Notes: generated by a model from the letters alone, not told the origin. A stretch of 64,000 bases of DNA from Thermodesulfobacteriota bacterium (GCA_965205855.1 OZ242184.1:544001-608000), one strand, 5' to 3'. Shown: positions 1-55,135, counted from the first letter of the stretch. Program-made: numbers and translations.

Positions 1-1
1 C

Positions 2-3000
2 CTGACGGCGGACACCGACGGCATCAGCGATGCCGATGGCCCTGATCCCCTGTCATTCACCTATCAATGGTTTGCGAACGACGGAACCACGAACGAGGCG
101 ATCAGCGGCGCGACCTCTGCGACCTACATCCTGACCCCGGACGAAATGGGCGATCAAATCACCGTGACCGTCAGCTATACCGATGCTGGCAGCACCGACG
201 AGACCCTGACCAGCGCGCCCACGATAGCGGTCGCGGCGAGCAGTACCTCTAATACCCCGCCGACCTCAAGCGGACTGACGGTCTCGACAGAAGAGGATAC
301 CGCCCACAGCTTTGCGGCGGCCGAGTTCACCTTTGCCGATGCCGACGGCGATGCCCTGCACAGCCTGCGCATCGACACGCTGCCCGCCACCGGCAGCCTG
401 ACCCTTGATGGCGCTGCGGTTATCGCCGGGGATGTGATCCCCGCCGCCGGGATCGGGACCCTCGTCTATACCCCGGCCGCGAATGCCACCGGCGATGTCA
501 GTTTCACCTTCAGCCTCTCCGACGACTCCGACGGCACCACCTTCGGCGCAACCGCCACGGCAACCGTCACCATCGACGCCGTCAATGATGCGCCGACCAC
601 GAGCGGGCTGACGGTCTCGACACAAGAGGATACCGCTCACAGCTTTACGGCGGGCGAGTTCAACTTTGCCGATGCGGACGGCGATGACCTTGACAGCCTG
701 CGCATCGACACGCTGCCCGCAACCGGCAGCCTGACCCTCGACGGCACTGCGGTGACCGCGGGGGATGTGATCGCCGCCGCCGGTATCTCGAACCTTGTCT
801 ATACCCCGGCTGAGAATGCCACCGGCGATGACACCTTCACCTTCAGCCTCTCCGACGGCACCGCCTTTGGCGCAACCGCCACGGCAACCGTCAGCATCGG
901 CGCGGAGAATGACGCGCCGACCACGAGCGGGCTGGCGGTCTCGACGCAAGAGGATACCGCCCACAGCTTTACGGCGGGCGAGTTCAACTTTACCGATGCG
1001 GACGGCGATGCCCTGGACAGCCTGCGCATCGACACGCTGCCCGCAACTGGCAACCTGACCCTCGACGGCACTGCGGTGACCGCGGGGGATGTGATCGCCG
1101 CCGCCGGTATCTCGAACCTTGTCTATACCCCGGCTGAGAATGCCACCGGCGATGTCACCTTCACCTTCAGCCTCTCCGACGGCACCGTCTTTGGCGCAAC
1201 CGCCACGGCAACCGTCACCGTGACTGCGGTTAATGACGCACCCACCGCCGATGCTGGTGCTGACCAGGCCGTCGCCGAAGGCGCCAGCGTCACCCTGAAC
1301 GGCAGCGGCAACGATCCCGAGAACGCGAGCCTGAGCTACACCTGGACTCAGACCAGCGGAACCCCGATGGTGACCCTGACCGACGCGGACACCGCCACAC
1401 CGACCTTCACCGCCCCCGAGAACCTCTTGGCTGATGCGGTGCTGGTCTTTTCCCTGATCGTGAACGATGGCGTGAGTGACTCGTCTGCCGCTACCGTCAC
1501 CATCACCACCACCGCCGGCACCAATGACCCGCCCACCGCCGATGCTGGTGTTGACCAGACCGTCGCCGAGGGCGCCAGCGTCACCCTGAACGGCAGCGGC
1601 AACGATCCCGAGAACGCGAACCTGAGCTACACCTGGACGCAGGCCAGCGGAACCCCGATGGTGACCCTGACCGACGCGGACACCGCCACGCCGACCTTCA
1701 CCGCCCCCGAGAACCTCTTGGCTGATGCGGTGCTGGTCTTTTCCCTGATCGTGAACGATGGCGTGAGTGACTCTCAAGCCGCTACCGTCACCATCACCAC
1801 CACCGCCGGCACCAATGACCCGCCCACCGCCGATGCTGGTGTTGACCAGACCGTCGCCGAAGGCGCCAGCGTCACCCTGAACGGCAGCGGCAACGATCCC
1901 GAGAACGCGAACCTGAGCTACACCTGGACGCAGGCCAGCGGAACCCCGATGGTGACCCTGACCGACGCGGACACCGCCACGCCGACCTTCACCGCCCCCG
2001 AGAACCTCTTGGCTGATGCGGTGCTGGTCTTTTCCCTGATCGTGAACGATGGCGTGAGTGACTCTCAAGCCGCTACCGTCACCATCACCACCACCGCCGG
2101 CACCAATGACCCGCCCACCGCCGATGCTGGTGTTGACCAGACCGTCGCCGAAGGCGCCAGCGTCACCCTGAACGGCAGCGGCAACGATCCCGAGAACGCG
2201 AACCTGAGCTACACCTGGACGCAGGCCAGCGGAACCCCGATGGTGACCCTGACCGACGCGGACACCGCCACGCCGACCTTCACCGCCCCCGAGAACCTCT
2301 TGGCTGATGCGGTGCTGGTCTTTTCCCTGATCGTGAACGATGGCGTGAGTGACTCTCAAGCCGCTACCGTCACCATCACCACCACCGCCGGCCAGAATGA
2401 CCCGCCCACCGCCGATGCTGGTGTTGACCAGACCGTCGCCGAGGGCGTCAGCGTCACCCTGAACGGCAGCGGCAACGATCCCGAGAACGCGAACCTGAGC
2501 TACACCTGGACGCAGGCCAGCGGAACCCCGATGGTGACCCTGACCGACGCGGACACCGCCACGCCGACCTTCACCGCCCCCGAGAACCTCTTGGCTGATG
2601 CGGTGCTGGTCTTTTCCCTGATCGTGAACGATGGCGTGAGTGACTCTCAAGCCGCTACCGTCACCATCACCACCACCGCCGGCCAGAATGACCCGCCCAC
2701 CGCCGATGCTGGTGTTGACCAGACCGTCGCCGAGGGCGCCAGCGTCACCCTGAACGGCAGCGGCAACGATCCCGAGAACGCGAACCTGAGCTACACCTGG
2801 ACGCAGGCCAGCGGAACCCCGATGGTGACCCTGACCGACGCGGACACCGCCACGCCGACCTTCACCGCCCCCGAGAACCTCTTGGCTGATGCGGTGCTGG
2901 TCTTTTCCCTGATCGTGAACGATGGCGTGAGTGACTCTCAAGCCGCTACCGTCACCATCACCACCACCGCCGGCCAGAATGACCCGCCCACCGCCGATGC

Positions 3001-6000
3001 TGGTGTTGACCAGACCGTCGCCGAGGGCGCCAGCGTCACCCTGAACGGCAGCGGCAACGATCCCGAGAACGCGAACCTGAGCTACACCTGGACGCAGGCC
3101 AGCGGAACCCCGATGGTGACCCTGACCGACGCGGACACCGCCACGCCGACCTTCACCGCCCCCGAGAACCTCTTGGCTGATGCGGTGCTGGTCTTTTCCC
3201 TGATCGTGAACGATGGCGTGAGTGACTCTCAAGCCGCTACCGTCACCATCACCACCACCGCCGGCCAGAATGACCCGCCCACCGCCGATGCTGGTGTTGA
3301 CCAGACCGTCGCCGAGGGCGCCAGCGTCACCCTGAACGGCAGCGGCAACGATCCCGAGAACGCGAACCTGAGCTACACCTGGACGCAGGCCAGCGGAACC
3401 CCGATGGTGACCCTGACCGACGCGGACACCGCCACGCCGACCTTCACCGCCCCCGAGAACCTCTTGGCTGATGCGGTGCTGGTCTTTTCCCTGATCGTGA
3501 ACGATGGCGTGAGTGACTCTCAAGCCGCTACCGTCACCATCACCACCACCGCCGGCCAGAATGACCCGCCCACCGCCGATGCTGGTGTTGACCAGACCGT
3601 CGCCGAGGGCGCCAGCGTCACCCTGAACGGCAGCGGCAACGATCCCGAGAACGCGAACCTGAGCTACACCTGGACGCAGGCCAGCGGAACCCCGATGGTG
3701 ACCCTGACCGACGCGGACACCGCCACGCCGACCTTCACCGCCCCCGAGAACCTCTTGGCTGATGCGGTGCTGGTCTTTTCCCTGATCGTGAACGATGGCG
3801 TGAGTGACTCTCAAGCCGCTACCGTCACCATCACCACCACCGCCACCCCCAATAATCCGCCCACCACCAACGCACCTCTGACCGTGCCTGGCCTGAGTCT
3901 GGCGGCGGGTGAGCAGACGGTTGATCTGAGTAACGGGTTTAGCGACGCTGACGGCGATATGTTGAGCTACGAGGCAGAGTCTGAAGATGAAGACATCGTT
4001 ACGGTGAGTGTCGCGGGCAGTACGCTAACCATAACCCCGGTGGGTGCCGGTACGGCGACGCTAACGCTCAGGGCCAATGATGGCAATGGTGGCACGGTCG
4101 AGCAGACGGTGATGGCAACGGTGGGCAACAGTGCGCCCACGACCAGTACAACGATTACGGTGTCGGCGTTAACTGTGGCCGGGGGTGAACAGACGGTTGA
4201 ACTGAGTAACGGGTTTAGCGACGCTGACGGCGATATGTTGAGCTACGAGGCAGAGTCTGATGATGAGGACATCGTTACGGTAGCGGTAGCGGGCAGTATG
4301 CTGACCATAACCCCGGTGGGTGCCGGTACGGCGACGCTAACGCTCAGGGCCAATGATGGCAATGGTGGCACGGTCGAGCAGATGGTGATGGCAACGGTGG
4401 GCAACAGTGCGCCCACGACCAGTACAACGATTACGGTGCCGGCGTTAACTGTGGCCGGGGGTGAACAGACGGTTGATTTGAATAGTGGGTTTATCGACCC
4501 TGACGGCGACACGTTGAGCTACGAGGCAGAGTCTGATGATGAAGACATCGTTACGGTAGCGGTAGCGGGCAGTATGCTGACCATAACCCCGGTGGGTAAC
4601 GGTACGGCGACGCTGACGCTCAGGGCCAATGATGGCAATGGTGGCACGGTCGAGCAGACGGTGATGGCAACGGTGGGCAACAGTGCGCCCACGACCAGTA
4701 CAACGATTACGGTGCCGGCGTTAACTGTGGCCGGGGGTGAACAGACGGTTGAACTGAGTAACGGGTTTAGCGACGCTGACGGCGATATGTTGAGCTACGA
4801 GGCAGAGTCTGATGATGAGGACATCGTTACGGTGAGTGTCGCGGGCAGTACGCTGACCATAACCCCGGTGGGTAACGGTACGGCGACGCTGACGCTCAGG
4901 GCCAATGATGGCAATGGTGGCACGGTCGAGCAGACGGTGATGGCAACGGTGGGCAACAGTGCGCCCACGACCAGTACAACGATTACGGTGCCGGCGTTAA
5001 CTGTGGCCGGGGGTGAACAGACGGTTGAACTGAGTAACGGGTTTAGCGACGCTGACGGCGATACGTTGAGCTACGAGGCAGAGTCTGATGATGAAGACAT
5101 CGTTACGGTGAGTGTTGCGGGCAGTACTCTGACCATTATCCCGGTGGGTAACGGTACGGCGACGCTGACGCTCAGGGCCAATGATGGCAATGGTGGCATG
5201 GTCGAGCAGACGGTGATGGCAACGGTGGGCAACAGTGCGCCCACGACCAGTACAACGATTACGGTGCCGGCGTTAACTGTGGCCGGGGGTGAACAGACGG
5301 TTGATTTGAATAGTGGGTTTATCGACCCTGACGGCGATATGTTGAGCTACGAGGCAGAGTCTGATGATGAAGACATCGTTACGGTAGCGGTAGCGGGCAG
5401 TATGCTGACCATAACCCCGGTGGGTGCCGGTACGGCGACGCTGACGCTCAGGGCCAATGATGGCAATGGTGGCATGGTCGAGCAGACGGTGATGGCAACG
5501 GTGGGCAACAGTGCGCCCACGACCAGTACAACGATTACGGTGCCGGCGTTAACTGTGGCCGGGGGTGAACAGACGGTTGATTTGAATAGTGGGTTTATCG
5601 ACCCTGACGGCGATATGTTGAGCTACGAGGCAGAGTCTGATGATGAAGACATCGTTACGGTGAGTGTTGCGGGCAGTACTCTGACCATTATTCCGGTGGG
5701 TAACGGTACGGCGACGCTGACGCTCAGGGCCAATGATGGCAATGGTGGCATGGTCGAGCAGACGGTGATGGCAACGGTGGGCAACAGTGCGCCCACGACC
5801 AGTACAACGATTACGGTGCCGGCGTTAACTGTGGCCGGGGGTGAACAGACGGTTGATTTGAATAGTGGGTTTAGCGACCCTGACGGCGATACGTTGAGCT
5901 ACGAGGCAGAGTCTGATGATGAAGACACCGTCACGGTGAGTGTCGCGGGCAGTACTCTGACCATTATTCCGGTGGGTAACGGTACGGCGACGCTGACGCT

Positions 6001-9000
6001 CAGGGCCAATGATGGCAATGGTGGCATGGTCGAGCAGACGGTGATGGCAACGGTGGGCAACAGTGCGCCCACGACCAGTACAACGATTACGGTGCCGGCG
6101 TTAACTGTGGCCGGGGGTGAACAGACGGTTGATTTGAATAGTGGGTTTATCGACCCTGACGGCGATATGTTGAGCTACGAGGCAGAGTCTGATGATGAAG
6201 ACATCGTTACGGTGAGTGTTGCGGGCAGTACTCTGACCATTATTCCGGTGGGTAACGGTACGGCGACGCTGACGCTCAGGGCCAATGATGGCAATGGTGG
6301 CATGGTCGAGCAGACGGTGATGGCAACGGTGGGCAACAGTGCGCCCACGACCAGTACAACGATTACGGTGCCGGCGTTAACTGTGGCCGGGGGTGAACAG
6401 ACGGTTGATTTGAATAGTGGGTTTAGCGACCCTGACGGCGATACGTTGAGCTACGAGGCAGAGTCTGATGATGAAGACACCGTCACGGTGAGTGTCGCGG
6501 GCAGTACTCTGACCATTATCCCGGTGGGTAACGGTACGGCGACGCTAACGCTCAGGGCCAATGATGGCAATGGTGGCACGGTCGAGCAGACGGTGATGGC
6601 AACGGTGGGCAACAGTGCGCCCACGACCAGTACAACGATTACGGTGCCGGCGTTAACTGTGGCCGGGGGTGAACAGACGGTTGATTTGAATAGTGGGTTT
6701 ATCGACCCTGACGGCGATATGTTGAGCTACGAGGCAGAGTCTGATGATGAAGACATCGTTACGGTGAGTGTTGCGGGCAGTACTCTGACCATTATTCCGG
6801 TGGGTAACGGTACGGCGACGCTGACGCTCAGGGCCAATGATGGCAATGGTGGCATGGTCGAGCAGACGGTGATGGCAACGGTGGGCAACAGTGCGCCCAC
6901 GACCAGTACAACGATTACGGTGCCGGCGTTAACTGTGGCCGGGGGTGAACAGACGGTTGATTTGAATAGTGGGTTTAGCGACCCTGACGGCGATACGTTG
7001 AGCTACGAGGCAGAGTCTGATGATGAAGACACCGTCACGGTGAGTGTCGCGGGCAGTACTCTGACCATTATTCCGGTGGGTAACGGTACGGCGACGCTGA
7101 CGCTCAGGGCCAATGATGGCAATGGTGGCATGGTCGAGCAGACGGTGATGGCAACGGTGGGCAACAGTGCGCCCACGACCAGTACAACGATTACGGTGCC
7201 GGCGTTAACTGTGGCCGGGGGTGAACAGACGGTTGATTTGAATAGTGGGTTTATCGACCCTGACGGCGATACGTTGAGCTACGAGGCAGAGTCTGATGAT
7301 GAAGACACCGTCACGGTGAGTGTCGCGGGCAGTATGCTGACCATAACCCCGGTGGGTAACGGTACGGCGACGCTGACGCTCAGGGCCAATGATGGCAATG
7401 GTGGCACGGTCGAGCAGACGGTGATGGCAACGGTGGGCAACAGTGCGCCCACCTCAAGCGGTCTGGCAGTCAGGACAAACGAGGATATCCCCCATACCTT
7501 TGCGGTTGTCGATTTCCCCTTTACCGATGCCGACGGGGATAGTTTGCAACAGGTGCGCATCGATACGCTACCCGCAACCGGCAGCCTGACCCTGAACGGC
7601 ACAGAGGTCACCGCACCGCAAGAGATTGCCGTTGCCGATATTCCCGATCTGGTCTATACCCCGGCCGCAAATGCCAACGGCATGGACAGCTTCGACTTCA
7701 GCGTCTCCGATGGCACTGACTTCAGTGAGTCCTCCACGGCGGTACTGACCATAGAAGCGTCAAATGACCCTGCGACGGGATTGCCTACAATTACGGGCAC
7801 GGCGAACGAGGGAGAGGAACTGACGGCAGATGTCTCTGGTATTGAGGATATAGATGGTCTGCCCGAGCTGTCCATGTTCACCTATCAATGGAATACGCGG
7901 GTCGGGAGCACGGACACGCCGATTAACAACGCGACCACCGAAACCTACACCCCGACCGATGGCGAGGTGGGCGAGTTTATCACGGTGACGGTCATCTTCA
8001 CAGATGGCGGTGGCACGCGTGAAAGCCTTACAAGTGAGTCAACGATGGAGGTGACAGATATTGTCAGGGTGTTAACGATGGACGAGGCGTTGCGTCTCAA
8101 CGCGGAGCCACCGACCACGGACACGACGGGCAGTATTGTCACGTTGTCAACCAGCGAAGAAGTAATCCTTGATAACGCTAATGGTGAGGATTTCGACGTT
8201 ACCTCAACCCTGAATGGCGAAACAATACCTCACGAGGTTACCGATATCAGGGCGGGCAGTATCGTACTGGAGGTGACCCCGGCAATCGGGTTCGGGTCTC
8301 TCATCGGAGTTTCCTATAGTCCGGTTCAAGGTTCCATTACGGGTGCCGTTACGGGCAATCCGGTGGTTCCGTTCAGTATAAGTGTGAACAACGCGGTACG
8401 GCCGTTGAATGAAGACCTGGATCGTGATGGCAGGAAAACGTTGTTGACGCACCTCACGATTGTTCAGAGCGATCTGGTGATAAGCACGGTACAGAACCAC
8501 CTGAGGGCGCTGGACGGAGGCAACCGTGTGAGCGTTCCACGACATGCGGTTGTAGAGACAGAGGGAGAAGGCAAATACGTTGAATACGAGAACGTCCGTG
8601 AGATGCTGTCTCATCTGGAGTTTGATCTTTCCCTGAACAGTCTGATGGGGTCGAATGAGGAGTGGCGCAAGACCGGTATTTCGTCCGCCGGGTTAGAGAG
8701 TTCGTTAGCGCCGGTTGTGGGAACTGATTTGTCATCGCCGCGGACACTTACCCTGTGGGGAGGAGGAGGCGAGACGCGTCTGGACAACGATTACAATACA
8801 TCCGGTGACGACAATCGCTATGACGGTCGTGTGTGGTCTTACAACACAGGTTTGGATTACCGTCCCTCGGAGTCTTTGACCCTGGGTGCGGCAGTGGGTT
8901 ATCTGGACAGTGAACTGACGACCACCTACAACGAAGGCACCTATGATGAGAAGATGGTATCGGTGTCACCGTACCTGCTGTATGAGAGTCCGTGGGGTCT

Positions 9001-9817: not shown

Positions 9818-9844
9818 AAACAAGGTGTTTTCCCGTCTTGCTGT
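7912..9844 (+). repeat. Copy 1 of ~1.9-kb direct repeat (shared SwmB-like + barrel C-terminal cassette plus ~27 bp of 3' flank)
   Basis: Near-identical to 39744-41658. Differs by scattered, mostly synonymous SNPs and an 18-bp indel (8705-8722, LAPVVG). Confidence 0.95.
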
Positions 9845-9912
9845 CGTAAGAGAATGACTTTGTAGTTGTGGGTTTTCCAAAAGAAGAATAAAATAACTTC
9901 TCAATAATAAAT

Positions 9913-27900: not shown

Positions 27901-30900
27901 TGCGTTTGACAATGGCGTGAATGTTAGGGATCAGATAGAGACGACCATTACCGACAGCATCGGCACCGTGATTGCTGCGGTGGATACCGGCACGCCCGGC
28001 GTCTACACCATCACCTACAGGGTGAGAGATGTGGCGGGCAACGAAGCCGAGGTCTTCAGAATGGTCACCGTGAGCGGCGGCCCAATCATCACTGACAGCC
28101 GGGGCCAGACCCCGACCCCGACCGAGGGTCAGAGACTGGAAGCAGCGACTGGCACCATTACCGACGCCAGGGGCAGCTTCAGTTATCAATGGACTGCCAA
28201 TAGAGTGGCTATCAGCGGCGCGGACAGGGCGCGCTACACCCCGACCCAGGCCGAGGTGGGCAAGATGATAAGGGTTATTGTGTCCTACACTGATACGCAG
28301 AGTGCTAACCGGCGCCTGACCAGCATTCCCGTCGGGCCGGTAGTCAATGTCAATGACGCGCCCACCGGAGTACCGATCATTGCCGGCATCCCGACCCAAG
28401 GTCGGACCCTGACGGCGGATACCTCGGGCATTGAAGATGAAGATGGTCTGAATAGAGCGGTTTTCACCTATCAATGGAATACGCGTGTCGGTGGCACGGA
28501 CACGGCAATTGATGGAGCCACCGCCAGTACCTACACCCTGAGCCAGTCCGAGGTGGGCGAGAGAATCACCCTGAGCGTCGGCTACACCGATGATGAAAAC
28601 ATGGACGAGGGTCCTCTGACCAGCGTTTCCGTCGGGCCGGTGTCCAATGCCAATGTTCGTCCCACCGGCGAGGTGACCATTGATGGCACCCCGACCGAGG
28701 GTGAGACTCTGACGGCGAATACCGATGCCATTGAAGATGAGGATGGTCTGAGTAGAGCGGTTTTCACCTATCAATGGAATACGCGTGTCGGTGGCACGGA
28801 CACGGCAATTGATGGAGCCACCGCCAGTACCTACACCCTGAGCCAGTCCGAAGTGGGCGAGAGAATCACCCTGAGCGTCGGCTACACCGATGATGAAAAC
28901 ATGGACGAGGGGCCTCTGACCAGCGTTTCCGTCGGGCCGGTGTCCAATGTTAATGACGCGCCCACCACCAGCGGTCTGGCGGTTACGACAGACGAGGATA
29001 TCGCCTATACCTTTGGGTTGGCCGACTTTTCCTTTACCGATGTCGACACTGGCGATAGTCTGGAGCAAGTGCGCATCGATACCCTGCCCGACGCTGGTAT
29101 CGGCAGCCTGTCCCTGAGCGGCACAGCGGTGACCGCGATGCAAGAGATTGCGGTTGGGGATATTACGAATCTGGTCTATACCCCGGTGGCCAATGTCAAC
29201 GGCGCTGCGACCTTCACCTTCAGCGTCTCCGACGGCACTGCCTTCAGTGCGTCCGCCACGGCAACCGTGACCGTTACCGCGGTCAATGACCCGCCCACTG
29301 GCAGTGTAATCATCACCGGCACGGCGACCGAGGGCCAGACCCTGACGGCGAACACCGATGGCATCAGCGATGCCGATGGCCCTGATACCCTGACATTCAG
29401 CTATCAATGGCTATCGGGTTTCAGTCCGATAGCCGGCGCGAACGGAAGCACCTACATCCTGACCCCGGCCGATGTGGGCCAGTTTATCAGCGTGTCCGTC
29501 CGCTATACCGATGCTAATAACATGACCCATAGTGTGAGTAGTGCTCCCTTCGGGCCGGTGATCGTGGCGGGCACGGTGACGGTTTCCATTGCGCCCCCCG
29601 GCGCCGCAGTCGATGAGGGCGATCCCGCGACCTTCACCGTGACCCTGTCGGGTTCTCCCACGGATGAAGTGGTGGTGAACTATGCCACCTCGCCCGACAC
29701 GGCGGTGGCGGCTGATTTCACCGATACCAGTGGCACGCTGACCTTCGCCGCGAACGCGAGCGGGGCCGCCCTGAGCCAGGATATCAGCGTACCGACGACG
29801 GACGATAGCGAGACCGAGGGCGATGAGACCTTCACCCTGACCCTGAGCGCGAACACTGCCAGCCCACTACCGGCAGGTGTCACTCTGGACACGACCACGG
29901 CCCAGGCGACCATCGCAGCCAACGATGCACCGGTCAACAGCCCGCCCACCACCAGCGATCTGACGGTCACCACAAACGAGGATACCGACTATACCTTTGC
30001 GGCGGCTAACTTCAACTTTAACGATGCCGACACTGGCGATATGCTGGAGCAAGTGCGCATAGATAGCCTGCCCGGTACCGGCACCCTGACCCTGAACAAC
30101 ACAGCGGTGACCGCGATGCAAGAGATTGCGGTTGGGGATATTGCGAATCTGGTCTATACCCCGGTGGCCAATGTCAACGGCGCTGCGACCTTCACCTTCA
30201 GCGTCTCCGACGGCACTGTCTTTAGTACCCCGCCCGCCACGGCAACCATCACCATTAACTCGGTCAATGATGATCCTGATGGCGAAGTGACTATCAGCGG
30301 CATTCCCCGGGTGGGGGAGACCCTGACGGCAAACACCTCTGGCATTACCGATGCCGATGGCCCTACGAGCCTGACTTTCACCTATCAATGGCTTGCGAAC
30401 GACGGAACCACGAACGAGGAGATCAACGGCGCGACCTCCGAAACCTACCTCCTGACCGCGGACGAAATGGGCGAGACGATCACTGTGTCCGTGCGCTATA
30501 CCGATGCTGGTAACACGCCGGAAAGCCTGACCAGCGCGCCCACGGAGGCGGTGGTGGCGCCGGGCAACATCCCGGCGACGGGAGAACCGACCATCAGCGG
30601 CATTCTCCAGGTGGGCCAGACCCTGACAGCGGACACCTCTGCAATTACCGATGCCAATGGGCCTACCGCACCCGCCTTCAGCTACCAATGGCAGGCGGAC
30701 GGCCAGGATATTGCCGGCGCGACCGCCATCACCTATATCCCGACTGCGGACGATGTCGGTGATATGATCACCGTGACGGCCATCTTCACCGATGACGGGG
30801 GAACGCGTGAAGAACGGACCAGTGCCCCCACGGCGGCGATCCAGACCAATACCCGCCCCACCGCCAATGCCGGTTCAGGTTCGACAGGGGCCAAAGGTAG

Positions 30901-33900
30901 CCTCATCACGCTCAATGGCTCTGGCAGTAACGACCCCGACGGCGATAATGCAAATCTGACGTATCTATGGACGCAGCAGCCTGGCAGCACCCCGGTGACT
31001 TTAAGCGATCCGACAGCACAGCAACCGACGTTCACCATTCCAACCGTAATAGAGCGCGGTTTTACTTTTGTTTTCAGTCTGGTCGTTAGCGACGGGGCGC
31101 TCTCGTCCACCAACAGGGCTGAAGTCACCATCTTTACCCGACCGATATTTCGGTTCCCCACGACCCTTGTTGATCAGACCTATGTGGTGGGCAACCAAAT
31201 TGCTGATCTGGCTTTGCCCACGGCACTGGATATTGTAGGCACTCCCAATATCTATATGCTGAGTCCCCTGCCGCCTGGACTGACCTTTAATACTACTAAC
31301 CGCACACTGTCTGGTACGCCGACCCAGGCTGGAACCTTTGACCTGACCTACGTCGCGACGAGTAGCTTTGGCACGGATTCACGCAACTTTAGCATTGCGG
31401 TGATTAACCTCCCGACCATCACTGGCACTCCGACCGAGGGTGAGGAGCTAACGGCAGACGCCTCTGCAATTATCGCGGCCAACGGGCTTGACGAATCCGA
31501 CATCAGCTACCAATGGCAGGCGGATGGCGTAGATATTGCCAACGCGACCTCCATCACCTACACCCTGAGCACGGACGATATCGGTAAGAGGATCACCGTG
31601 ACGGCCAGCTTCACCGTTGGCTCAACGAGTGAAGAACGAACCAGCGCACCCACGGCGTTGGTGGCGGTGGCGGGCAACATCCCGGCGACGGGAGAACCGA
31701 CCATCAGCGGCATTCTCCAGGTGGGCCAGACCCTGACAGCGGACACCTCTGGAATTACCGATGCCAATGGGCCTGCCGCACCCGCCTTCAGCTACCAATG
31801 GCAGGCGGACGGCCAGGATATTGCCGGCGCGACCGCCATCACCTATATCCCGACTGCGGACGATGTCGGTGATATGATCACCGTGACGGCCATCTTCACC
31901 GATGACGGGGGAACGCGTGAAGAACGGACCAGTGCCCCCACGGCGGTGATCCAGACCAATACCCGCCCCACCGCCAATGCCGGTTCAGGTTCGACAGCGG
32001 ACAAAGGTAGCCTCATCACGCTCGATGGCTCTGGCAGTAACGACCCCGACGGCGATAATGCAAATCTGACGTATCTATGGACGCAGGTGCCGCTGGATAA
32101 CGGCGGCGGCATCCCGGTGACTTTAAGCGATCCGACAGCACAGCAGCCGACGTTCACCATTCCAACCATAATTGCTCGCGAATTTACTTTTCGTTTCGAT
32201 TTGGTCGTTAGCGACGGAGCGCTCTCGTCCACCAACACCGCCAGAGTCGAAATTTTTACCCGACCGAGATTTGGGTACCCCGAGACCCTTGTTGATCAGA
32301 CCTATGTGGTGGGCAACCAAATTGCTGATCTGGCTTTGCCCACGGCACTGGATATTGTAGGCACTCCCAATACCTATATGCTGAGTCCCCTGCCGCCTGG
32401 ACTGTCCTTTAATACTATTAACCGCACACTGTCTGGTACGCCGACCCAGGCTGGAACCTTTGACCTGACCTACGTCGCGACGAGTAGCATTGGCACGGAT
32501 TCACGCAGCTTTAGCATTGCGGTGGTTGACCCCGTGACGGTTTCCATTGCACCCCCTGGCGCCGCAGTCGATGAAGGCGACCCCGCCACCTTCACCGTGA
32601 CCCTGTCGGGTTCTCCCACGGATGAAGTGGTGGTGGACTATGCCACCTCAATCGCGATGGACGACACGGCGGTGGCGGCTGATTTCACAGAAACCACCGG
32701 CACGCTGACCTTTGCCGCGAACGCGAGCGGGGCCGACCTGAGCCAGGAAATCAGCGTACCGACGACGGACGATAGCGAGACCGAGGGCGATGAGACCTTC
32801 ACCCTGACCCTGAGTGCGAACACCAACAGCCCACTACCGGCAGGTGTCACTCTGGACACGACCACGGCCCAGGCGACCATCGCAGCCAGCGATGCGCCGG
32901 TCAACAACCCGCCCACCACCAGCGCGTTCACGGTCACCACAAACGAGGATACCGACTATACCTTTGCGGCGTCCGACTTCCCCTTTACCGATACCGACAT
33001 GGGCGATATGCTGGAAGAAGTGCGCATCGATAGCCTGCCCGACAGCGCCGACGGCAGCCTGACCCTGAGCGGCGCAGCGGTCACCGCGATGGACGTGATT
33101 CCCGTTGCGAATATCCCAACTCTGGTCTATACCCCAGTGGCCAATGTCAACGGCGATGCGACCTTCACCTTCAGCGTCTCCGACGGCACTGCCTTTAGTG
33201 CCACGGCCACGGCAACCGTGACCGTAAACGCGGTCAATGACCTCACCACTGGCCAACCCGTCATCATCGGCGACTTGATCCAGGGCGCAACCCTGACGGT
33301 GGATACCTCCGCCATAATGGATGAGGATGGGCTGGGCACCTTTACCTATGGCTGGTTCCATGATGGTCTTCCGCCAGCCGTCTCGACCGAGGCAAGCTAC
33401 GCCCTGACCCAGGCCGATGTGGGCACTCTCCTGTTCCTGGAGGTCTTCCATACCGATGCGCAGGGCACCAGCCAGCAACTATCTACAGTCTTCACAGGCC
33501 TACCAGATTTCATCCGCATCGCCAACATCAACGACCTGCCCACCGGCCTGGCCATCAGCGGCGGGCTGGTGGTGGGCCAGACCCTCAGGGCGGATACCTC
33601 CACGCTGGTGGATATTGATGGCCTGCCGGATGAGTCCGATTTCACCTATCAATGGCTTGCGGATGGCCTGGCTATCGCCGGCGCCATGGGGCCGGAATAC
33701 GAACTGGCCGCGGCCCAGATAGGCGCTCAGATCAGCCTGAACCTGCGCTACACCGATAATTTTAACGCGAATGAGTCCATCACCAGCCCGGCGCGTGGCC
33801 CGGTGCGGGGGAGCGGCGTCAACACCCCGCCCACCACCAGCGGGCTGACGGCCAGCACGCCTGAGGATATGGCCTATACCTTTGCGGCGGATGATTTCAA

Positions 33901-36900
33901 TTTCGTCGACGTGGACACGGGCGATAGCCTGCAACAGGTGCGCATCGATAGCCTGCCCGACAGCGCCGACGGCAGCCTGGCGCTGAGCGGTACGCTGGTC
34001 ACCGCGATGGACGTGATTGCCGTTGCCGATATTCCGAACTTGATCTATACCCCGGTGACCAATGTCAACGGCGATGCGACCTTCACCTTCAGCGTCTCCG
34101 ACGGCACTGCCTTTAGTGCCACGCCCGCCACGGCAACCGTCAGCGTTACCGCAGTTAATGACGCGCCCACCATCACTGGCACCCCCGCCACAATGGTGAT
34201 GCAAGGGGTGGCCTATAGCTTTATGCCGGACGGCGCAGATGTCGATACTGGCGACACGCTGGTATATGCCATCACCAATATGCCAAGCTGGGCCAATTTC
34301 GATGCCGCGACCGGGGCCTTGACCGGCACGCCACAGAGCACCGATGTCGGTACCACCACGGGCATTATCATCAGCGTCACCGATAACAATATCGCCGCGC
34401 CAGTAGAACTGCCCGCCTTCGACATCGAAGTCACCGCCACCCCCAACAGCCCGCCCACCACCAGCGACCTGATGGTCATGACAGACGAGGATACCGACTA
34501 TACCTTTGCGGCGTCCGACTTCCCCTTTACCGATACCGACATGGACGATAGTCTGGAAGAGGTGCGCATCGATAGCCTGCCCGACAGCGGTAGCCTGACC
34601 CTAGGCGGCACAGAGGTTAACGAGGGGCAAGCGATTGCCGTTGCCGATATCCCGACTCTGGTCTATACCCCGGTGACCAATGTCAACGGCGATGCGACCT
34701 TCACCTTCAGCGTCTCCGACGGCACTGCCTTTAGTGCCACGCCCGCCACGGCAACCGTCAGCGTTACCGCAGTTAATGACGCGCCCACCATCACTGGCAC
34801 CCCCGCCACAATGGTGATGCAAGGGGTGGCCTATAGCTTTATGCCGGACGGCGCAGATGTCGATACTGGCGACACGCTGGTATATGCCATCACCAATATG
34901 CCAAGCTGGGCCAATTTCGATGCCGCGACCGGGGCCTTGACCGGCACGCCACAGAGCACCGATGTCGGTACCACCACGGGCATTATCATCAGCGTCACCG
35001 ATAACAATATCGCCGCGCCAGTAGAACTGCCCGCCTTCGACATCGAAGTCACCGCCACCCCCAACAGCCCGCCCACCACTGGCGATCTGATGGTCATGAC
35101 AGACGAGGATACCGACTATACCTTTGCGTCGGCCAACTTCCCCTTTGCCGATACCGACGGCGATACCCTGGCAGCGGTGCGCATCGATAGCCTGCCCGAC
35201 AGCGCCGACGGCAGCCTGGCGCTGAGCGGTACGCTGGTCACCGCGATGGACGTGATTGCCGTTGCCGATATTCCGAACTTGATCTATACCCCGGTGACCA
35301 ATGTCAACGGCGATGCGACCTTCACCTTCAGCGTCTCCGACGGCACTGCCTTTAGTACCCCCCCCGCCACGGCAACCGTGAGCGTTACCGCGGTTAATGA
35401 CGCGCCCACCATCACTGGCACCCCCGCCACAATGGTGATGCAAGGGGTGGCCTATAGCTTTATGCCGGACGGCGCAGATGTCGATACTGGCGACACGCTG
35501 GTATATGCCATCACCAATATGCCAAGCTGGGCCAATTTCGATGCCGCGACTGGGGCCTTGACCGGCACGCCCGCCAACGCCGATGTCGGTAACTACGAGG
35601 ACATCGTGATCAGCGTCACCGATGGCATCATCGCCACACCGGTCGCGCTGCCCGCCTTCGATATCGCCGTCACCAACACCAATGACGCGCCCACCATCAG
35701 CGGCACGCCCGCCACAACCGTGGCCGAAGACAGCGCCTATAGCTTCACGCCAACCGGTGCCGACGATGATGGCGACACGCTGACCTATGCCATTACAAAC
35801 ATGCCGTCATGGGCCAGTTTCAGCACCGCAACCGGGGCCTTGACCGGCACCCCCGCCAACGCCGATGTCGGCGACTACGAGGACATCGTGATCAGCGTCA
35901 CCGATGGCATCATCGCCACACCGGTCGGCCTCGCATCCTTCGATATCGCCGTCACCAACACCAATGACGCGCCCACCCTCAGCGGCACGCCCGCCACCAG
36001 CGTGGCCGAAGACAGCGCTTATAGCTTCACGCCAACCGGTGCCGACGATGATGGCGACACGCTGACCTATGCCATTACAAACCTGCCGTCATGGGCCAGC
36101 TTCAGCACCACAACCGGGGCCTTGACCGGCACGCCCGTCAACGCCGATGTCGGCGACCACGAGGACATCGTGATCAGCGTCACCGATGGCATCATCGCCA
36201 CGCCAGTAGCGCTGCCGGCCTTTGCTATCGAGGTCACCAACACCAATGACGCGCCCACCCTCAGCGGCACGCCCGCCACCAGCGTGGCCGAAGACAGCGC
36301 CTATAGCTTCACGCCAACCGCTGAAGATGCGGATGGCGACAGGCTGACCTGGGCGATCACAAACATGCCTTTATGGGCCAGTTTCGACACCACAACCGGG
36401 GCCTTGACCGGCACGCCCGCCAACGAGCATGTCGGCGACTACGAGGACATCGTGATCAGCGTCACCGATAACAATATCGCCGCGCCAGTAGAACTGCCCG
36501 CTTCGACATCGAAGTCACCGCCACCCCCAACAGCCCGCCCACCACTGGCGATCTGATGGTCATGACAAACGAGGATAGCGACTATACCTTTGCGGTGGCC
36601 AACTTCCCCTTTACCGATGACGATAGCGGCGATACCCTGCAACAAGTGCGCATCGATAGCCTGCCCGACAGCGCGGATGGCGGCCTGGCGTTGAACGGTA
36701 CGCCGGTCACCGCGATGGACGTGATTGCCGTTGCCGATATTCCGACTCTGGTCTATACCCCGGTGACCAATGTCAACGGCGATGCGACCTTCACCTTCAG
36801 CGTCTCCGACGGCACTGACTTCAGTACCCCGCCCGCCACGGCAACCCTGACCGTTACTCCGGTCAATGACGCGCCCACCGCCCGTGCCGGTTCAGATCGG

Positions 36901-39900
36901 GATGTAGGGAGCAAAGGTAGCCTCATCACGCTTGATGGCTCTCGCAGTTCCGACCCGGATGCGAGCGACATGCTGACGTATCAATGGACGCAGCAGCCTG
37001 GCAGCGTCACGGTGACTTTAAGCGATCCGACAGCACCGCGGCCGACGTTCACCATTCCAACCGTAATAGAGAGCGGTTTTACTTTTGTTTTCAGTCTGGT
37101 CGTTAGCGACGGAGCGCTCTCGTCCACCAACACGGCTAGCATCACCGTCCGTACCAGACCGATATTTCAGTTCCCCACGACCCTTGATAATCAGACCTAT
37201 GTGGTGGGCAACCAAATTGATGATCTGACTTTGCCCACGGCACTGGATATTGTAGGCAATCCCAATACCTATGCGCTGAGTCCCCTGCCGCCTGGACTGT
37301 CCTTTAATACTACTAACCGCACACTGTCTGGTACGCCGACCCAGTCTGGAACCTTTGACCTGACCTACGTCGCGACGAGTAGCATTGGCACGGATTCACG
37401 CAGCTTTAGCATTGCGGTGGTTGACCCCGTGACGGTTTCCATTGCCCCCCCTGGCGCCGCAGTCGATGAAGGCGATCCCGCGACCTTCACCGTGACCCTG
37501 TCGGGTTCTCCCACGGATGAAGTGGTGGTGGACTATGCCACCTCGCCCGACACGGCGGTGGCGGCCGATTTCACCGATACCAACGGCACGCTGACCTTCG
37601 CGGCAGGTGCGACCGACCTGAGCCAGGAAATCAGCGTACCGACGGAGGACGATAGCGAGACCGAGGGGGTCGAGACCTTCACTCTGACCCTGAGCGAGCC
37701 CAGCGGGGGCTTCCCGACCGGGGTCACCCTGGACTCCTCGGCCACCAGCGCCCAGGCGACCATTGCAGCCAGCGATGCGCCGGTCAACAGCCCGCCCACC
37801 ACCAGCGATCTGACGGTCACCACAAACGAGGATACCGACTATACCTTTGCGGCGTCCGACTTTAACTTTACCGATGCCGACATGGGCGATAGCCTGGACG
37901 CGGTGCGCATAGATAGCCTGCCCGCCAGCGCCGACGGCAACCTGACCCTGAACAACACAGCGGTGATCGTGGCCCAAGAGATTGCCGTTGCGGATATTCC
38001 GAACCTGGTCTATACCCCGGTGGCCAATGTCAACGGCGATGCGACCTTCACCTTCAGCGTCTCCGACGGCACTGCCTTTAGTGCCACGCCCGCCACGGCA
38101 ACCGTCACCATTAACTCGGTCAATGATGATCCTAGTGGCGAGGTGACGATCAGCGGCACTCCCCAGGTGGGCCAGACCCTGACAGCGGACACCTCTGGAA
38201 TTACCGATGCCGATGGCCCTGCTACTCTGTCATTCACCTATCAATGGCTTGCGGGTAACACTCCTATCAGCAACTCGGACTCTGCAACCTACATGCTGAC
38301 CGGGGACGAATTAGGCGAGATGATCAGCGTGGACGTCAGCTACATGGATGCCGATGGCTTTGAGGGAGGTGTTGTCAGTGATCCCGTCGGACCGGTGGTG
38401 GCGGCAAGCACCCCGAATACCCCGCCGACCTCAAGCGATCTGGCGGTCACCATAGACGAGGATACCCCCCATACCTTTGCGGTGGCCGACTTCCCCTTTA
38501 GCGATGTCGACACCAGCGACAGCCTGCAACAGGTGAGCATCGATAGACTGCCTACAACCGGCAGCCTGACCCTCGGTGGCGCATCGGTTAGAGCGGGGCA
38601 AGAGATTACCGTTGCCAGTATTCCGAACCTGGTCTATACCCCGGTCGCAAATGCCAACGGCACGGACACCTTCACTTACAGAGTCTCTGACGGCACTGCC
38701 TTCAGTGCGGTAGCCACGGCAGCCCTGACCATCACCCCGGTCGATGATGACCCCGATGGCGAGGTGACAATCACCGGCACCCCGACCGAGGGCATGGAAC
38801 TCACGGCCGACACCACAGGCATAAGCGACCCTGACGGTCCCGGCACTTTGGGCTTCTCATATCAATGGCTCGCAAACGGAGTTGATATTAGCGGTGCTAC
38901 CTCTGCGACCTACACCCTTACACAGAGCGAGGTGGGACAGAACATCTCCGTTACCGTCACATACACCGATGATGGCAGCACCGACGAGACCCTGACCAGT
39001 GATACCGTCGGGCCGGTTTCCAACACCAATGACTCTCCCACCGGAGTACCTACCATCACCGGCACACCGACACAGGGCGCGGAACTCACCGCCGACACCA
39101 CAGGCATAAGCGACCCTGACGGCCCCAGCACTTTGGACTTCTCCTATCAATGGCTGGCAGACGGAGTTGATATTAGCGGTGCTACCTCTGCGACCTACAC
39201 CCTTACACAGAGCGAGGTGGGACAGAACATCTCCGTTACCGTCACATACACCGATGATGGCGGCACCAGCGAGACCCTGACCAGTGATACCGTCGGGCCG
39301 GTTTCCAACACCAATGACTCTCCCACCGGAGTACCTGTCATCACCGGCACACCGACACAGGGCGCGGAACTCACCGCCGACACCACAGGCATAAGCGACC
39401 CTGACGGTCCCGGCACTTTGGACTTCTCACATCAATGGCTCGCAGACGGAGTTGATATTAGCGGTGCTACCTCTGCGACCTACACCCTTACACAGAGCGA
39501 GGTGGGACAGAACATCTCCGTTACCGTCACATACACCGATGATGGCAGCACCGACGAGACCCTTACCAGTGATACCGTCGGGCCGGTTTCCAACACCAAT
39601 GACTCTCCCACCGGATTACCTGTCATTACCGGCATGGCGAACGAGGGAGAGGTACTGACGGCGGATGTCTCCGGTATTGAGGATATAGATGGTATTGATA
39701 CCGAGAGTTTGAGCTACCAATGGAATACCAACGATGGCACAGTGGACACGCCGATTAACAACGCGACCACCGAAACCTACACCCCGACCGAGGACGAGGT
39801 GGGCGAGTTTATCACGGTGACGGTCATCTTCACAGATGGCGGTGGCACGCGTGAAAGCCTTACAAGTGAGTCAACGATGGAGGTGACAGATATTGTCAGG

Positions 39901-41631: not shown

Positions 41632-41658
41632 AAACAAGGCGTTTTCCCGTCCTGCTGT
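39744..41658 (+). repeat. Copy 2 of ~1.9-kb direct repeat (shared C-terminal translocator cassette)
   Basis: Near-identical to 7912-9844. Confidence 0.95.
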
Positions 41659-55076: not shown

Positions 55077-55123
55077 TTGATTTTTAGCCATGCTTTATGT
55101 TAAAGTTAACTATACCTAAATTT
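55077..55123 (+). promoter_or_regulatory. Putative sigma70 promoter overlapped by a DtxR/MntR-type operator
   Basis: TTGATT (55077) and TGn-TAAAGT (55101). Imperfect palindrome AAAGTTAACTATACCTAAATTT (55102-55123) resembles TTAGG-TATA-CCTAA DtxR-family boxes and lies just upstream of the repressor gene. Confidence 0.6.
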
Positions 55124-55135
55124 TTGGGGGAATGC

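What the first reader, a model, noticed from the sequence alone, without database searches (positions are those of the whole stretch)
1..39900. Module-library shuffling: near-identical DNA modules recur in new combinations within and between both genes
About seven module types join at a common N-x-x-P-T junction and reappear nearly verbatim far apart. Examples: Calx-beta at 29573/32533/37428; Ig+PKD+He_PIG block 30565-31400 vs 31675-32520, with part again at 36870-37420; 10650-10920 vs 19570-19840 vs 33540-33800; 22480-22890 vs 37990-38390; window start 60-220 vs 30380-30540 (cross-gene). Many modules are themselves chimeras of two others. Inference: ongoing ectopic recombination generates passenger diversity without a dedicated recombinase in the window.
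Basis: partly seen in the sequence, partly recalled or inferred. Interest (0 to 1): 0.7.

Follow-up and report, generated by a model that had tools for sequence, protein, structure and literature searches.

The report
Recombining family of giant adhesin genes

Summary
The repeats are real, but most are not "nearly verbatim". Within the window, only gene A's tandem arrays (98% and 96% matches) and the shared 2.1-kb 3' end (95%) come close.

The window holds gene A's 3' end and gene B. Gene B is about 10,560 codons and is broken by a 46-bp tandem duplication and a 1-nt deletion. Both belong to five tandem giant type Va autotransporter genes spanning 128.8 kb, or 9.2% of a 1.40-Mb genome.

About 400 Ig-like modules of eight main types mostly start at N-x-x-P-T.

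Gene B is a mosaic of out-of-window paralogs:
- A 6,026-bp tract is exactly identical to gene 2.
- 28 of 96 modules have dS = 0, next to modules with dS up to 0.3.
- Site patterns switch donor.

This rejects both plain tandem duplication and plain duplication-divergence for gene B. Gene A's arrays do fit tandem amplification.

The most likely mechanism is RecA/AddAB homologous recombination, meaning unequal crossover plus non-allelic gene conversion. No dedicated recombinase or reverse transcriptase was found.

Strain-to-strain module order could not be tested. The closest known analogue is the Bartonella badA island. I rate this a new variant of a known kind.

The parts
2..9817 (+). 3' two-thirds of gene A. 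The whole ORF is genome 539334-553817, about 4,790 aa. Window part: S, C x3 (251-1231), P x9 (1232-3850), B x13 (3851-7438), C (7439-7762), S (7763-8062), then the autotransporter C-terminal region (8063-9814).
1232..3865 (+). Tandem array of 291-bp K319L-like PKD modules, 9.1 copies, 98% matches. Three units are identical to each other.
3851..7452 (+). Tandem array of 276-bp Big_9/Big_2-like modules (about 13 copies, 96% matches). It has a two-unit (552-bp) higher-order pattern: units 289=291=293 and 290=294.
9913..17169 (+). Gene B fragment 1. It has a signal-peptide-like N-terminus, then SSSHSPh SSHSSHSHSHSHSHSHSS. It ends at a stop created by the 46-bp duplication.
17105..17196 (+). 46-bp direct tandem duplication (17105-17150 and 17151-17196) that shifts the frame by +1. 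The homologous site in gene 2 (genome 497823-498087) has a single copy.
17171..36556 (+). Gene B fragment 2 (6,461 codons): S D HSSSSSS C BBB SSS CCSCSPPnP I x12 SSSCS X C SSPh SSPh X C SS CHCHCHHHH.
22464..28489 (+). 6,026-bp tract exactly identical to gene 2 (genome 506395-512420). It is the core of a 7.9-kb block (22355-30270) at 98.8%.
   Evidence: 2x contig depth in run X2
28000..29560 (+). SSSCS segment that is a perfect mosaic of the two internal copies in gene 2. The informative sites run 22 x copy 1, 2 x copy 2, 1 x copy 1, 18 x copy 2. Gene B has no private sites here.
30266..33820 (+). About 3.5 kb absent from the colinear gene 2. Most of it (30828-33240) is 93.4% identical to gene 3, and it contains an internal 1-kb duplication (30430-31409 vs 31543-32531, 90%).
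35396..35680 (+). Clearest single-module chimera. The 5' part matches module g2.187.H (46:0 sites). The 3' part matches g1.27.H (30:1 sites).
36495..36510 (+). Site of a missing base (a C of GCC in ...CCC GCC TTC GA...) relative to the three neighbouring H modules. It shifts the frame and gives the stop at 36554-36556.
36556..41631 (+). Gene B fragment 3: C Ph X CSCSSSS plus a 578-aa C-terminal region with the autotransporter beta-barrel. It has no signal peptide of its own.
39598..41658 (+). Conserved 3' end shared by all five genes. It is 95.3% identical to gene A (7763-9844) and 97.6% to gene 2. The alignment shows mutually incompatible splits in runs.
48942..54814 (-). AddA-like helicase-nuclease (48942-52016) and AddB-like PD-(D/E)XK nuclease (51938-54814). 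This is general double-strand-break processing machinery. It is context only and is not shown to be linked to the adhesin genes.

Best explanation
The window holds the last two members of a tandem family of five giant monomeric (type Va) autotransporter fibrillar adhesins. Their passengers are strings of about 400 Ig-like modules: IG_AIR9/SCAB-like 'S', He_PIG 'H' and 'h', cadherin-like 'C', PKD 'P', Big_9/Big_2 'B', Bact_surface_Ig-like 'I' and Calx-beta 'X'. Most modules begin with a conserved N-D-x-P-T linker.

The family evolves by ordinary homologous recombination, acting on its own repeats in three ways:
1. Unequal crossover amplifies single modules or pairs into arrays (gene A).
2. Segmental duplication and deletion move multi-module cassettes.
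3. Non-reciprocal gene conversion between paralogs up to about 60 kb apart overwrites kilobase tracts (gene B from or to genes 2, 3 and 1, and the shared 3' ends).

Blocks start and stop at the linker-coding 15-mer (consensus AAT GAC GCG CCC ACC), so products stay in frame and domain-intact.

What is shown: the architecture, the mosaic pattern, the very recent exchange (dS = 0 tracts), and the presence of RecA and AddAB. What is inferred: that RecA/AddAB carry it out, that it still goes on, that it diversifies adhesion or antigenicity, and that the linker 15-mer is itself a crossover site rather than only a boundary kept by selection.
For: Family and scale:
- Five beta-domains, 91-100% identical, lie in open frames of 10,601, 12,381, 4,367, 4,827 and 1,719 aa, all on the + strand within genome 456814-585631.
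- PF03797 scores 81-85 bits against a cut-off of 26 in all five.
- The AF2 model has a barrel at pLDDT >90. The best Foldseek matches are autotransporter translocators EstA, AaaA, NalP (TMt 0.60), BrkA (0.65), EspP and Hbp.

Mosaic evidence:
- 81 of 96 gene B modules have their nearest DNA relative in another gene.
- The best partner switches along gene B: gene 2 (97.3%, 92.8%, 87.4%, 98.8%), then gene 3 (93.4%), gene 2 (93.8%), gene 1 (88.6%), gene 3 (90.7%), gene 2 (97.6%).
- Exact tracts of 6,026, 948, 843, 717 and 660 bp are shared with gene 2.
- 28 of 96 modules have dS = 0, beside modules with dS of 0.1-0.3 to the same paralog.
- In the three-way alignment, 43 informative sites fall in 4 runs and gene B has no private site.
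- The five 3' ends show runs of incompatible splits: g1+gB, g3+gA, g1+gA, g1+g3.
- PHI gives p = 0.001 for module types C, B, I, h and X.
- 10 modules are clean two-parent chimeras after Bonferroni correction.
- Gene labels change 21 times on the C-module tree and 49 times on the S-module tree, against a minimum of 4.

Block boundaries and the junction:
- 18 of 20 block ends lie within 20 nt of a module start, against 14% expected. Homology switches on and off at the 15-mer.
- Junction codons are non-random. AAT is used 69% at junctions against 37% elsewhere. GAC is 87 vs 46, GCG 86 vs 33, ACC 83 vs 57. This holds in S, H, C and P modules. A relative uses AAC and CCG in 10 of 10 junctions.

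Copy number and machinery:
- In run X2, a contig inside the identical block has depth 620.7, against 308-317 for gene-B-unique contigs. This fits two real copies.
- RecA is present and AddA/AddB lie in the window. No reverse transcriptase was found.
Against: - PHI is not significant for H (p = 0.098), S (0.147) and P (0.96).
- Only 10 of 379 modules pass the strict chimera test.
- Gene A's arrays are explained by tandem amplification alone.
- Much of the gene B/gene 2 similarity is colinear. This is what a whole-gene duplication would give, and the S and I trees look 'mixed' for that reason alone.
- The coincidence of block ends with module starts is partly built in. Where the flanking module types differ, alignments must stop there, and selection for intact domains predicts the same pattern.
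- The genome is one assembly from what looks like a metagenome. Exact tracts and the two frame breaks could not be checked on raw reads. Public contigs over the region are at most 762 nt long.
- No conspecific genome was available, so 'ongoing' is unproven.
- Donor and recipient cannot be told apart.
Confidence: 0.75

Rival explanations
1. Assembly or polishing artefact. The identical tracts, mosaic patches and frame breaks were produced when reads from near-identical paralogs were mixed during consensus building. The true paralogs would then be evenly diverged.
For: The runs holding this genome contain millions of contigs and so look like metagenomes. The assembly is a single contig with 129 kb of internal repeats. 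A 1-nt deletion is a typical long-read error. 10 of 14 listed loose-end strings from those runs are absent from the assembly.
Against: Mis-mapped polishing should make copies uniformly alike. It should not give sharp runs such as 22 sites = copy 1 followed by 18 sites = copy 2 with no private sites. Depth in run X2 is 2x inside the shared block (620.7 against 308-317). Contigs from two other studies (X4, X5) match parts of the block with 0 differences. A 46-bp tandem duplication is not a usual consensus error. The mosaic is seen at many independent places.
Confidence: 0.08
2. Plain duplication and divergence. Whole genes and cassettes were duplicated at different times and then diverged under uneven selective constraint, with no gene conversion.
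For: Gene B and gene 2 are largely colinear over the first 20 kb. Relatives carry a simple one-gene form (B10 H S X5 plus barrel). This shows that expansion by duplication did occur.
Against: Synonymous divergence is 0 over 20 consecutive modules and 0.1-0.3 in neighbouring modules of the same gene pair. Constraint on the protein cannot remove synonymous changes. Incompatible site partitions occur in adjacent runs. PHI is significant in 5 of 8 types.
Confidence: 0.07
3. Programmed variation system. The cluster would work like an expression-site-plus-cassette system, as recalled for Anaplasma msp2, Borrelia vlsE and Neisseria pilS. Broken gene B would serve as a silent donor library, and the linker 15-mer as a dedicated in-frame crossover signal.
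For: Gene B is broken twice yet shares dS = 0 tracts with intact gene 2. The 5' and 3' ends are conserved around variable middles. The junction DNA is conserved beyond the amino-acid requirement and is lineage-specific. The runs contain junction variants that are absent from the assembly.
Against: Four of the five genes are complete, each with its own start, signal-like N-terminus and barrel, so there is no single expression site. No dedicated recombinase, reverse transcriptase or G4-like element was looked for and found. The breaks may be sequencing errors. Population variants could not be assigned to this organism.
Confidence: 0.1

Closest known systems
badA genomic island of Bartonella henselae (PMC8859334; passages read with 'find')
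   Same: Both are alphaproteobacterial. Both have a very long, highly repetitive autotransporter adhesin gene flanked by badA-like pseudogenes or a large disrupted ORF. Both show frameshift-broken copies and conserved anchor-coding ends. In badA the authors infer reshuffling of homologous domain arrays by recombination, with the broken copy acting as a 'toolbox'.
   Different: BadA is a trimeric (type Vc, YadA-anchor) adhesin built from neck/stalk coiled-coil repeats. Here the anchor is a monomeric PF03797 barrel and the modules are Ig-like domains of eight families. This cluster has five genes of 4,400-12,400 codons, 9.2% of the genome. Strain comparison, the core of the badA evidence, is missing here.
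Periscope Proteins (PMC8201768; passages read)
   Same: Both have tandem arrays of folded domains with very high DNA identity, proposed to change copy number by intragenic recombination. Gene A's 291-bp x 9 and 276-bp x 13 arrays fit this.
   Different: Periscope arrays are homotypic and the hallmark is length variation between strains, which was not testable here. Gene B is heterotypic and shows inter-gene conversion rather than only copy-number change.
Fibrillar adhesins with an Autotransporter (PF03797) anchor (PMC8286594; passages read)
   Same: Both have a stalk of E-set/Ig-like Pfam domains (Big_9 and others) plus an outer-membrane anchor. PF03797 is listed there among the prevalent anchors in Proteobacteria.
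   Different: No distinct tip adhesive domain was identified here. The size and the five-gene tandem organisation are far beyond the typical case.
Ectopic recombination among yeast FLO adhesin paralogs (PMC3512402; search listing and start of abstract only)
   Same: Duplicated cell-surface adhesin genes with internal repeats recombine ectopically to give chimaeric alleles.
   Different: That system is eukaryotic and subtelomeric with different domain types. It was shown experimentally there and is only inferred here.
Segmental gene-conversion antigenic variation (Anaplasma msp2, Borrelia vlsE, Neisseria pilE/pilS; recalled, no call)
   Same: Both involve non-reciprocal transfer of segments between paralogous copies, including pseudogene donors.
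   Different: Those systems have one expression site and promoterless partial cassettes. Here four full-length genes coexist.

Membership tests
Type Va (monomeric) autotransporter | C-terminal PF03797 beta-domain | tested here: met
   PF03797 scores 81-85 bits (cut-off 26) in all five genes, and 79.3 bits in gene B fragment 3.
Type Va (monomeric) autotransporter | Translocator fold: beta-barrel preceded by an alpha-helical linker | tested here: met
   In the AF2 model, barrel residues about 235-510 have pLDDT >90 and there is a helix at 130-163. Foldseek top hits are EstA, AaaA, NalP, BrkA, EspP and Hbp, with E of 1.5e-8 to 5e-4 and TMt of 0.50-0.65 for isolated barrels. The strand number was not counted reliably. 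No solved structure was found by sequence.
Type Va (monomeric) autotransporter | N-terminal Sec signal peptide | tested here: inconclusive
   Gene B starts MPVKKRHISDFMLTRLRVVAGFCLLLLFSLGLSATAAHA. Gene A has a comparable hydrophobic N-terminus. This was read by eye, without a predictor.
Type Va (monomeric) autotransporter | Beta-helical passenger (typical, not obligatory) | tested here: not met
   The passenger consists of Big_9, Cadherin_5/4, He_PIG, K319L-like PKD, IG_AIR9, Bact_surface_Ig-like and Calx-beta modules.
Periscope Protein | Tandem array of near-identical folded domains (high DNA identity) | tested here: met
   Gene A has arrays of 291 bp x 9.1 at 98% and 276 bp x 12.9 at 96%.
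Periscope Protein | Repeat number varies between strains | not testable with these tools
   No conspecific genome is held. Public contigs over the region are at most 762 nt long.
badA-type recombining adhesin island | Repetitive adhesin gene next to broken paralogous copies that share domain arrays | tested here: met
   There are five tandem paralogs. Gene B is broken twice and shares blocks at 88-100% with genes 1-3.
badA-type recombining adhesin island | Trimeric autotransporter (YadA-type anchor, neck/stalk repeats) | tested here: not met
   The anchor is PF03797. No YadA family appears among the Pfam hits.
Diversity-generating retroelement | Reverse transcriptase near the variable gene | tested here: not met
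   PF00078 gives 0 matches in the whole genome, which is 98% complete.
Cassette-type antigenic variation (msp2/vlsE/pilS-like) | Single expression site plus partial silent cassettes | tested here: not met
   Four of the five genes are uninterrupted from N-terminus to barrel. Only gene B is broken.

The most novel reading that the evidence does not exclude
The five-gene cluster is a self-recombining 'module library'. The linker-coding 15-mer (AAT GAC GCG CCC ACC) is kept at the DNA level across four unrelated module families, against the genes' own codon preference. It would serve as a universal in-frame crossover point. Broken gene B would act as a donor reservoir. A streamlined 1.4-Mb bacterium could then keep generating new adhesin combinations within a population without any dedicated recombinase.
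Probability: 0.2. Interest if true: 0.75.

Novelty: new variant of a known kind. Interest (0 to 1): 0.5.

Why it matters
Recombination-driven turnover of repeat-built adhesins is known from the badA island, Periscope Proteins and yeast FLO genes. The principle is therefore not new.

Three things stand out here:
- Scale and setting. Five tandem genes of 4,400-12,400 codons take up 9.2% of a 1.4-Mb genome, or about 9.8% once the sixth autotransporter gene of the same module family elsewhere on the chromosome (genome 6216-15107, 8.9 kb) is added.
- Architecture. The genes are anchored by a monomeric autotransporter barrel but built from Ig-like modules.
- Rarity. Few relatives were found for this family. 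Only two other proteins turned up in a search of 5.8 billion clusters at near length. Four of five same-genus genomes had no match.

The locus offers an unusually clean natural record of non-allelic gene conversion: exact 6-kb tracts, perfect mosaics, and cassette boundaries at one conserved 15-mer. If strain data confirm turnover, it would be a tractable model for how domain order in giant surface proteins is rewritten. It would also hint that this small-genome bacterium lives attached to a surface or host.

Tried and rejected
- Public reads. Only Logan contigs were available and they are fragmentary over the repeats (at most 762 nt). They gave no verdict on the two frame breaks or on module order. 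Most listed 'joints' have sides of 21-38 nt and were disregarded.
- The 'skips 46' joint at 17103-17150 in X1 and X5 looked like an intact gene B allele. It carries the same four letters as the gene 2 paralog, so it is gene 2.
- Loose ends. 10 of 14 listed strings are absent from the assembly. They may come from co-occurring strains or relatives and could not be assigned, so they are not used as evidence.
- Conspecific or near relatives. The genome-contig scan gave only two loci, at 58-62%. The metagenome-contig scan gave none. Same-genus genomes gave 1 of 5, a weak match. The module-order comparison was therefore not possible.
- Promoter and terminator scans of the gene A/gene B spacer and of the region after gene B found nothing on the + strand.
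- NCBIfam gave no family for the C-terminal region and only sub-threshold repeat families for the modules. A PDB sequence search gave no hit.
- A diversity-generating retroelement was rejected because no reverse transcriptase was found.
- Long antisense ORFs (for example 266-3814 and 13381-17172 on the minus strand) were set aside, without a test, as probable by-products of the GC-rich repeats.

Full report
**What is in the window.**

All large ORFs in the first 41.6 kb are on the + strand.
- The first (2-9817) runs off the 5' end. In the laid genome it is a 4,827-codon open frame, genome 539334-553817. I call it gene A.
- The next three ORFs (9913-17169, 17171-36556, 36556-41631) abut one another in different frames. 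I call them together gene B.
- The first break is a 46-bp direct tandem duplication (17105-17150 and 17151-17196), which shifts the frame by +1. The homologous site in a paralog has a single copy.
- The second break is one missing base, a C of GCC at about 36500/36501, relative to the three preceding modules.
- Without these two lesions gene B would be about 10,560 codons.
- Gene A and gene B end in the same 2.1 kb at 95.3% identity. Gene B starts with a signal-peptide-like N-terminus.

**The two genes are part of a five-gene cluster.**
- A search of the organism's own genome with the last 591 residues found five copies at 91-100% identity. They lie in open frames of 10,601, 12,381, 4,367, 4,827 and 1,719 aa.
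- ORF listing places them head to tail on the + strand between genome 456814 and 585631. I call the first three genes 1, 2 and 3.
- That span is 128.8 kb, or 9.2% of a 1,401,274-bp single-contig genome with GC 0.497.
- PF03797 is matched above its cut-off in all five, and in two other genes.
- One of those, at genome 6216-15107, is built from the same S, P and h modules.

**The C-terminal region is an autotransporter barrel.**
- I predicted the structure of the C-terminal 591 residues from a 61-sequence alignment.
- The model has mean pLDDT 70.4. A beta-barrel at about 235-510 has pLDDT >90, and there is a long helix at 130-163.
- Its best PDB matches are autotransporter translocators: EstA, AaaA, NalP, BrkA, EspP and Hbp.
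- The genes are therefore monomeric (type Va) autotransporters with passengers that are not beta-helices.

**Modules.**
- Pfam finds Big_9, Cadherin_5/4, He_PIG, K319L-like PKD, IG_AIR9/SCAB-Ig, Bact_surface_Ig-like and Calx-beta.
- I built my own HMMs from motif-delimited segments and annotated 399 modules.
- Counts by type: S 103, H 101, C 49, P 39, I 35, B 32, X 16, h 16, and rare n, Q and D.
- Architectures:
  - Gene A: S Ph C B P S P S C S P S P S CCC P9 B13 CS-barrel.
  - Gene B: SSSHSPh SSHSSHSHSHSHSHSHSS | S D HSSSSSS C BBB SSS CCSCSPPnP I12 SSSCS X C SSPh SSPh X C SS CHCHCHHHH | C Ph X CSCSSSS-barrel.

**The junction motif.**
- N-x-x-P-T is strongly over-represented: 34 against 2.2 expected in gene A, and 54 against 4.5 in gene B.
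- It opens 271 of 399 modules, but none of the I, X or h modules.
- It coincides with position 1 of the Pfam Big_9 and PKD_4 models and lies just before He_PIG (coordinates compared). It is thus the conserved start or linker of these domain families, not a scar.

- All are real homologies.
- They are 72-90% identical, against within-type medians of 0.55-0.74.
- Near-identity inside the window is confined to gene A's arrays (291 bp x 9.1 at 98%, and 276 bp x 12.9 at 96%) and to the shared 3' end.

**Evidence for mosaic exchange.**
- Extending the comparison to the whole cluster changes the picture.
  - Window 22355-30270 is 98.8% identical to gene 2 over 7.9 kb.
  - The gene 1 end plus gene 2 start matches the gene A end plus gene B start at 97.3% over 3.9 kb.
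  - Window 30828-33240 and 36874-38754 match gene 3 at 93.4% and 90.7%.
  - Window 35396-36544 matches gene 1's H array at 88.6%.
- Maximal exact repeats include 6,026 bp (window 22464-28489 = gene 2), and 948, 843, 717 and 660 bp.
- Module by module, 81 of 96 gene B modules have their closest DNA relative in another gene. For gene A it is 10 of 38, and 26 of those 38 are closest to a neighbour within six modules.
- Nei-Gojobori estimates show 28 of 96 gene B modules identical to a gene 2 module (dS = 0). Neighbouring modules paired with the same gene have dS of 0.03-0.30. Pooled pN/pS over the non-identical pairs is 0.71.
- Protein-level constraint cannot erase synonymous differences, so the uneven divergence points to recent conversion.

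**Direct mosaics.**
- Gene 2 contains an internal duplicate of SSSCS. In the three-way alignment over window 28000-29560, the 43 informative sites fall into four runs: 22 with copy 1, 2 with copy 2, 1 with copy 1, and 18 with copy 2. Gene B has no private site.
- In the last 2.1 kb of all five genes, the 42 two-versus-three sites form runs supporting g1+gB, then g3+gA, then g1+gA, then g1+g3. These groupings are mutually incompatible. Genes 1 and 3 share an exact 1,156-bp tract.
- A permutation PHI test (window 60 nt, 1,000 permutations) gave p = 0.001 for C, B, I, h and X. It was not significant for H (0.098), S (0.147) and P (0.96).
- A triplet breakpoint scan covered 1,007,547 triplets with Bonferroni correction. 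It found 10 of 379 modules to be clean two-parent chimeras.
  - Five are in the window: 35396-35680, 39313-39597, 14356-14643, 4127-4402 and 5231-5506.
  - 'Many' chimeras is thus overstated, but chimeras exist.
- On FastTree module trees, gene labels change far more often than the minimum: C 21 against 4, S 49 against 4, H 15 against 2. For S and I this mainly reflects gene 2/gene B positional pairs.

**Where blocks begin and end.**
- Of 20 ends of the high-identity blocks covering gene B, 18 lie within 20 nt of a module start, against 14% expected. Two ends outside the module region were dropped before the count.
- Printed alignments show homology switching on or off at the linker 15-mer.
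- This is partly built in and is also what selection for intact domains predicts.
- More telling is that the linker is conserved at synonymous positions.
  - The consensus is AAT GAC GCG CCC ACC.
  - AAT is 69% at junctions against 37% elsewhere. GAC is 87 vs 46, GCG 86 vs 33, CCC 52 vs 36, ACC 83 vs 57.
  - The bias holds in S, H, C and P modules but not in B.
  - In a same-order relative with S modules, the 10 junctions use AAC and CCG throughout.
- The shared junction DNA is therefore specific to this genome's library. That fits repeated exchange through the junction, but modules within a type are not independent samples.

**Is it an artefact?**
- Runs holding the flanking housekeeping DNA were found: X1-X3 at 0.99-1.00 of words, X4 at 0.45 and X5 at 0.30. 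All are kept as contigs.
- Over window 16900-36800 the contigs are at most 762 nt long.
- Useful points from the contigs:
  - In X2, gene-B-unique contigs have depth 308-317, while a contig inside the identical block has 620.7. This is what two true copies would give.
  - X4 and X5, from other studies, match parts of the block with no differences.
  - No indel rows were reported, which does not prove agreement.
  - The 'skips 46' joint is the gene 2 paralog.
- Ten of 14 listed loose-end strings are absent from the assembly. These variants exist in the samples but cannot be assigned.
- Polishing errors would homogenise copies rather than create sharp alternating runs, so I give the artefact reading about 0.08.

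**Machinery.**
- The 19 window ORFs downstream of gene B that were scanned encode no transposase or site-specific recombinase. They do include AddA- and AddB-like proteins at 48942-54814 on the minus strand.
- The genome has RecA and no reverse transcriptase.
- The mechanism I commit to is RecA/AddAB-dependent homologous recombination among the repeats, as unequal crossover, segmental duplication or deletion, and non-allelic gene conversion. The enzymology is inferred.

**Relatives.**
- The beta-domain was found in 3 of 41 related genomes including the organism's own. The others match at 25-26% identity.
- It was found in two Alphaproteobacteria MAG contigs at 58-62%.
- No relative was found in the metagenome collection.
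- Only two other proteins were found at near length among 5.8 billion clusters. The representative search gave 291 proteins at E<=0.001, mostly 350-700-aa barrel proteins at 25-40% identity.
- The two MAG loci encode a simple form, B10 H S X5-20 plus barrel, like the start of gene 1.
- The five-gene, 400-module state therefore looks like a lineage-specific expansion.

**Comparison with what is known.**
- The badA island of Bartonella henselae has a repetitive adhesin gene, flanking pseudogenes, frameshifted copies and inferred reshuffling of domain arrays (PMC8859334, passages). It is the closest analogue, but it is a trimeric autotransporter with other repeat types.
- Gene A's arrays fit the Periscope Protein idea (PMC8201768, passages).
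- PF03797-anchored fibrillar adhesins are a recognised class (PMC8286594, passages).
- The giant-gene preprint (10.1101/2023.11.21.568195, passages) shows that larger bacterial proteins exist.
- My searches turned up no description of this cluster. That covers only the held library.

**Verdict.**
It is overstated for identity and for single-module chimeras, and wrong for gene A's arrays.
- I rate it a new variant of a known kind, of moderate interest.

Noticed in passing
window 48942-54814 (-): AddA-like (UvrD helicase domains) and AddB-like (PD-(D/E)XK nuclease) genes lie about 7 kb downstream of gene B. They are general recombination-repair machinery, and the proximity is probably coincidental.
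   Followed up: partly
genome 6216-15107 (outside the window): A sixth autotransporter gene (2,963 aa) has the architecture SSPhPh S20 P plus barrel. Its S modules are 78-86% identical in DNA to window 38764-39866.
   Followed up: partly
window 16729-16850 vs 17029-17150: Two adjacent S modules that otherwise differ share a 122-bp patch at 99% identity, just upstream of the 46-bp duplication. This looks like a sub-module conversion patch.
   Followed up: no
window 31142-31408, 32273-32530, 37159-37425: The h modules (He_PIG variant after PKD) differ from their closest relatives almost only by non-synonymous changes: 0 syn to 11 nonsyn, 1:9 and 1:7. This may reflect diversifying selection, but the numbers are small.
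   Followed up: no
window 1-41600 vs 42000-64000: The adhesin genes have GC 0.58-0.66 in their passenger parts, and about 0.52-0.53 over the two C-terminal barrel regions. The flanking housekeeping genes have about 0.50. This is probably an effect of T/A/G/D-rich composition, not necessarily foreign origin.
   Followed up: no
window 266-3814 (-), 13381-17172 (-) and others: Long antisense ORFs of up to 1,263 aa lie inside the repeat arrays. I set them aside, without a test, as probable shadows of the GC-rich periodic coding strand rather than genes.
   Followed up: no
window 55097-59575 (+): A DtxR-family regulator with a FeoA domain is followed by ZnuA-like binding protein, ABC ATPase and two ABC-3 permeases. 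This looks like a metal (Mn/Zn/Fe) uptake operon.
   Followed up: no
L010:3-11596: The relative's homologous gene (B10 H S X about 20 plus barrel) is also split into two overlapping frames in its MAG. Frame breaks in these repeat genes may be common or may be assembly errors.
   Followed up: no
genome 462571-484947 (gene 1, outside the window): About 70 He_PIG modules of 282 bp at 88-90% mutual identity, interrupted by CC or CCC groups, form a 22-kb array.
   Followed up: partly
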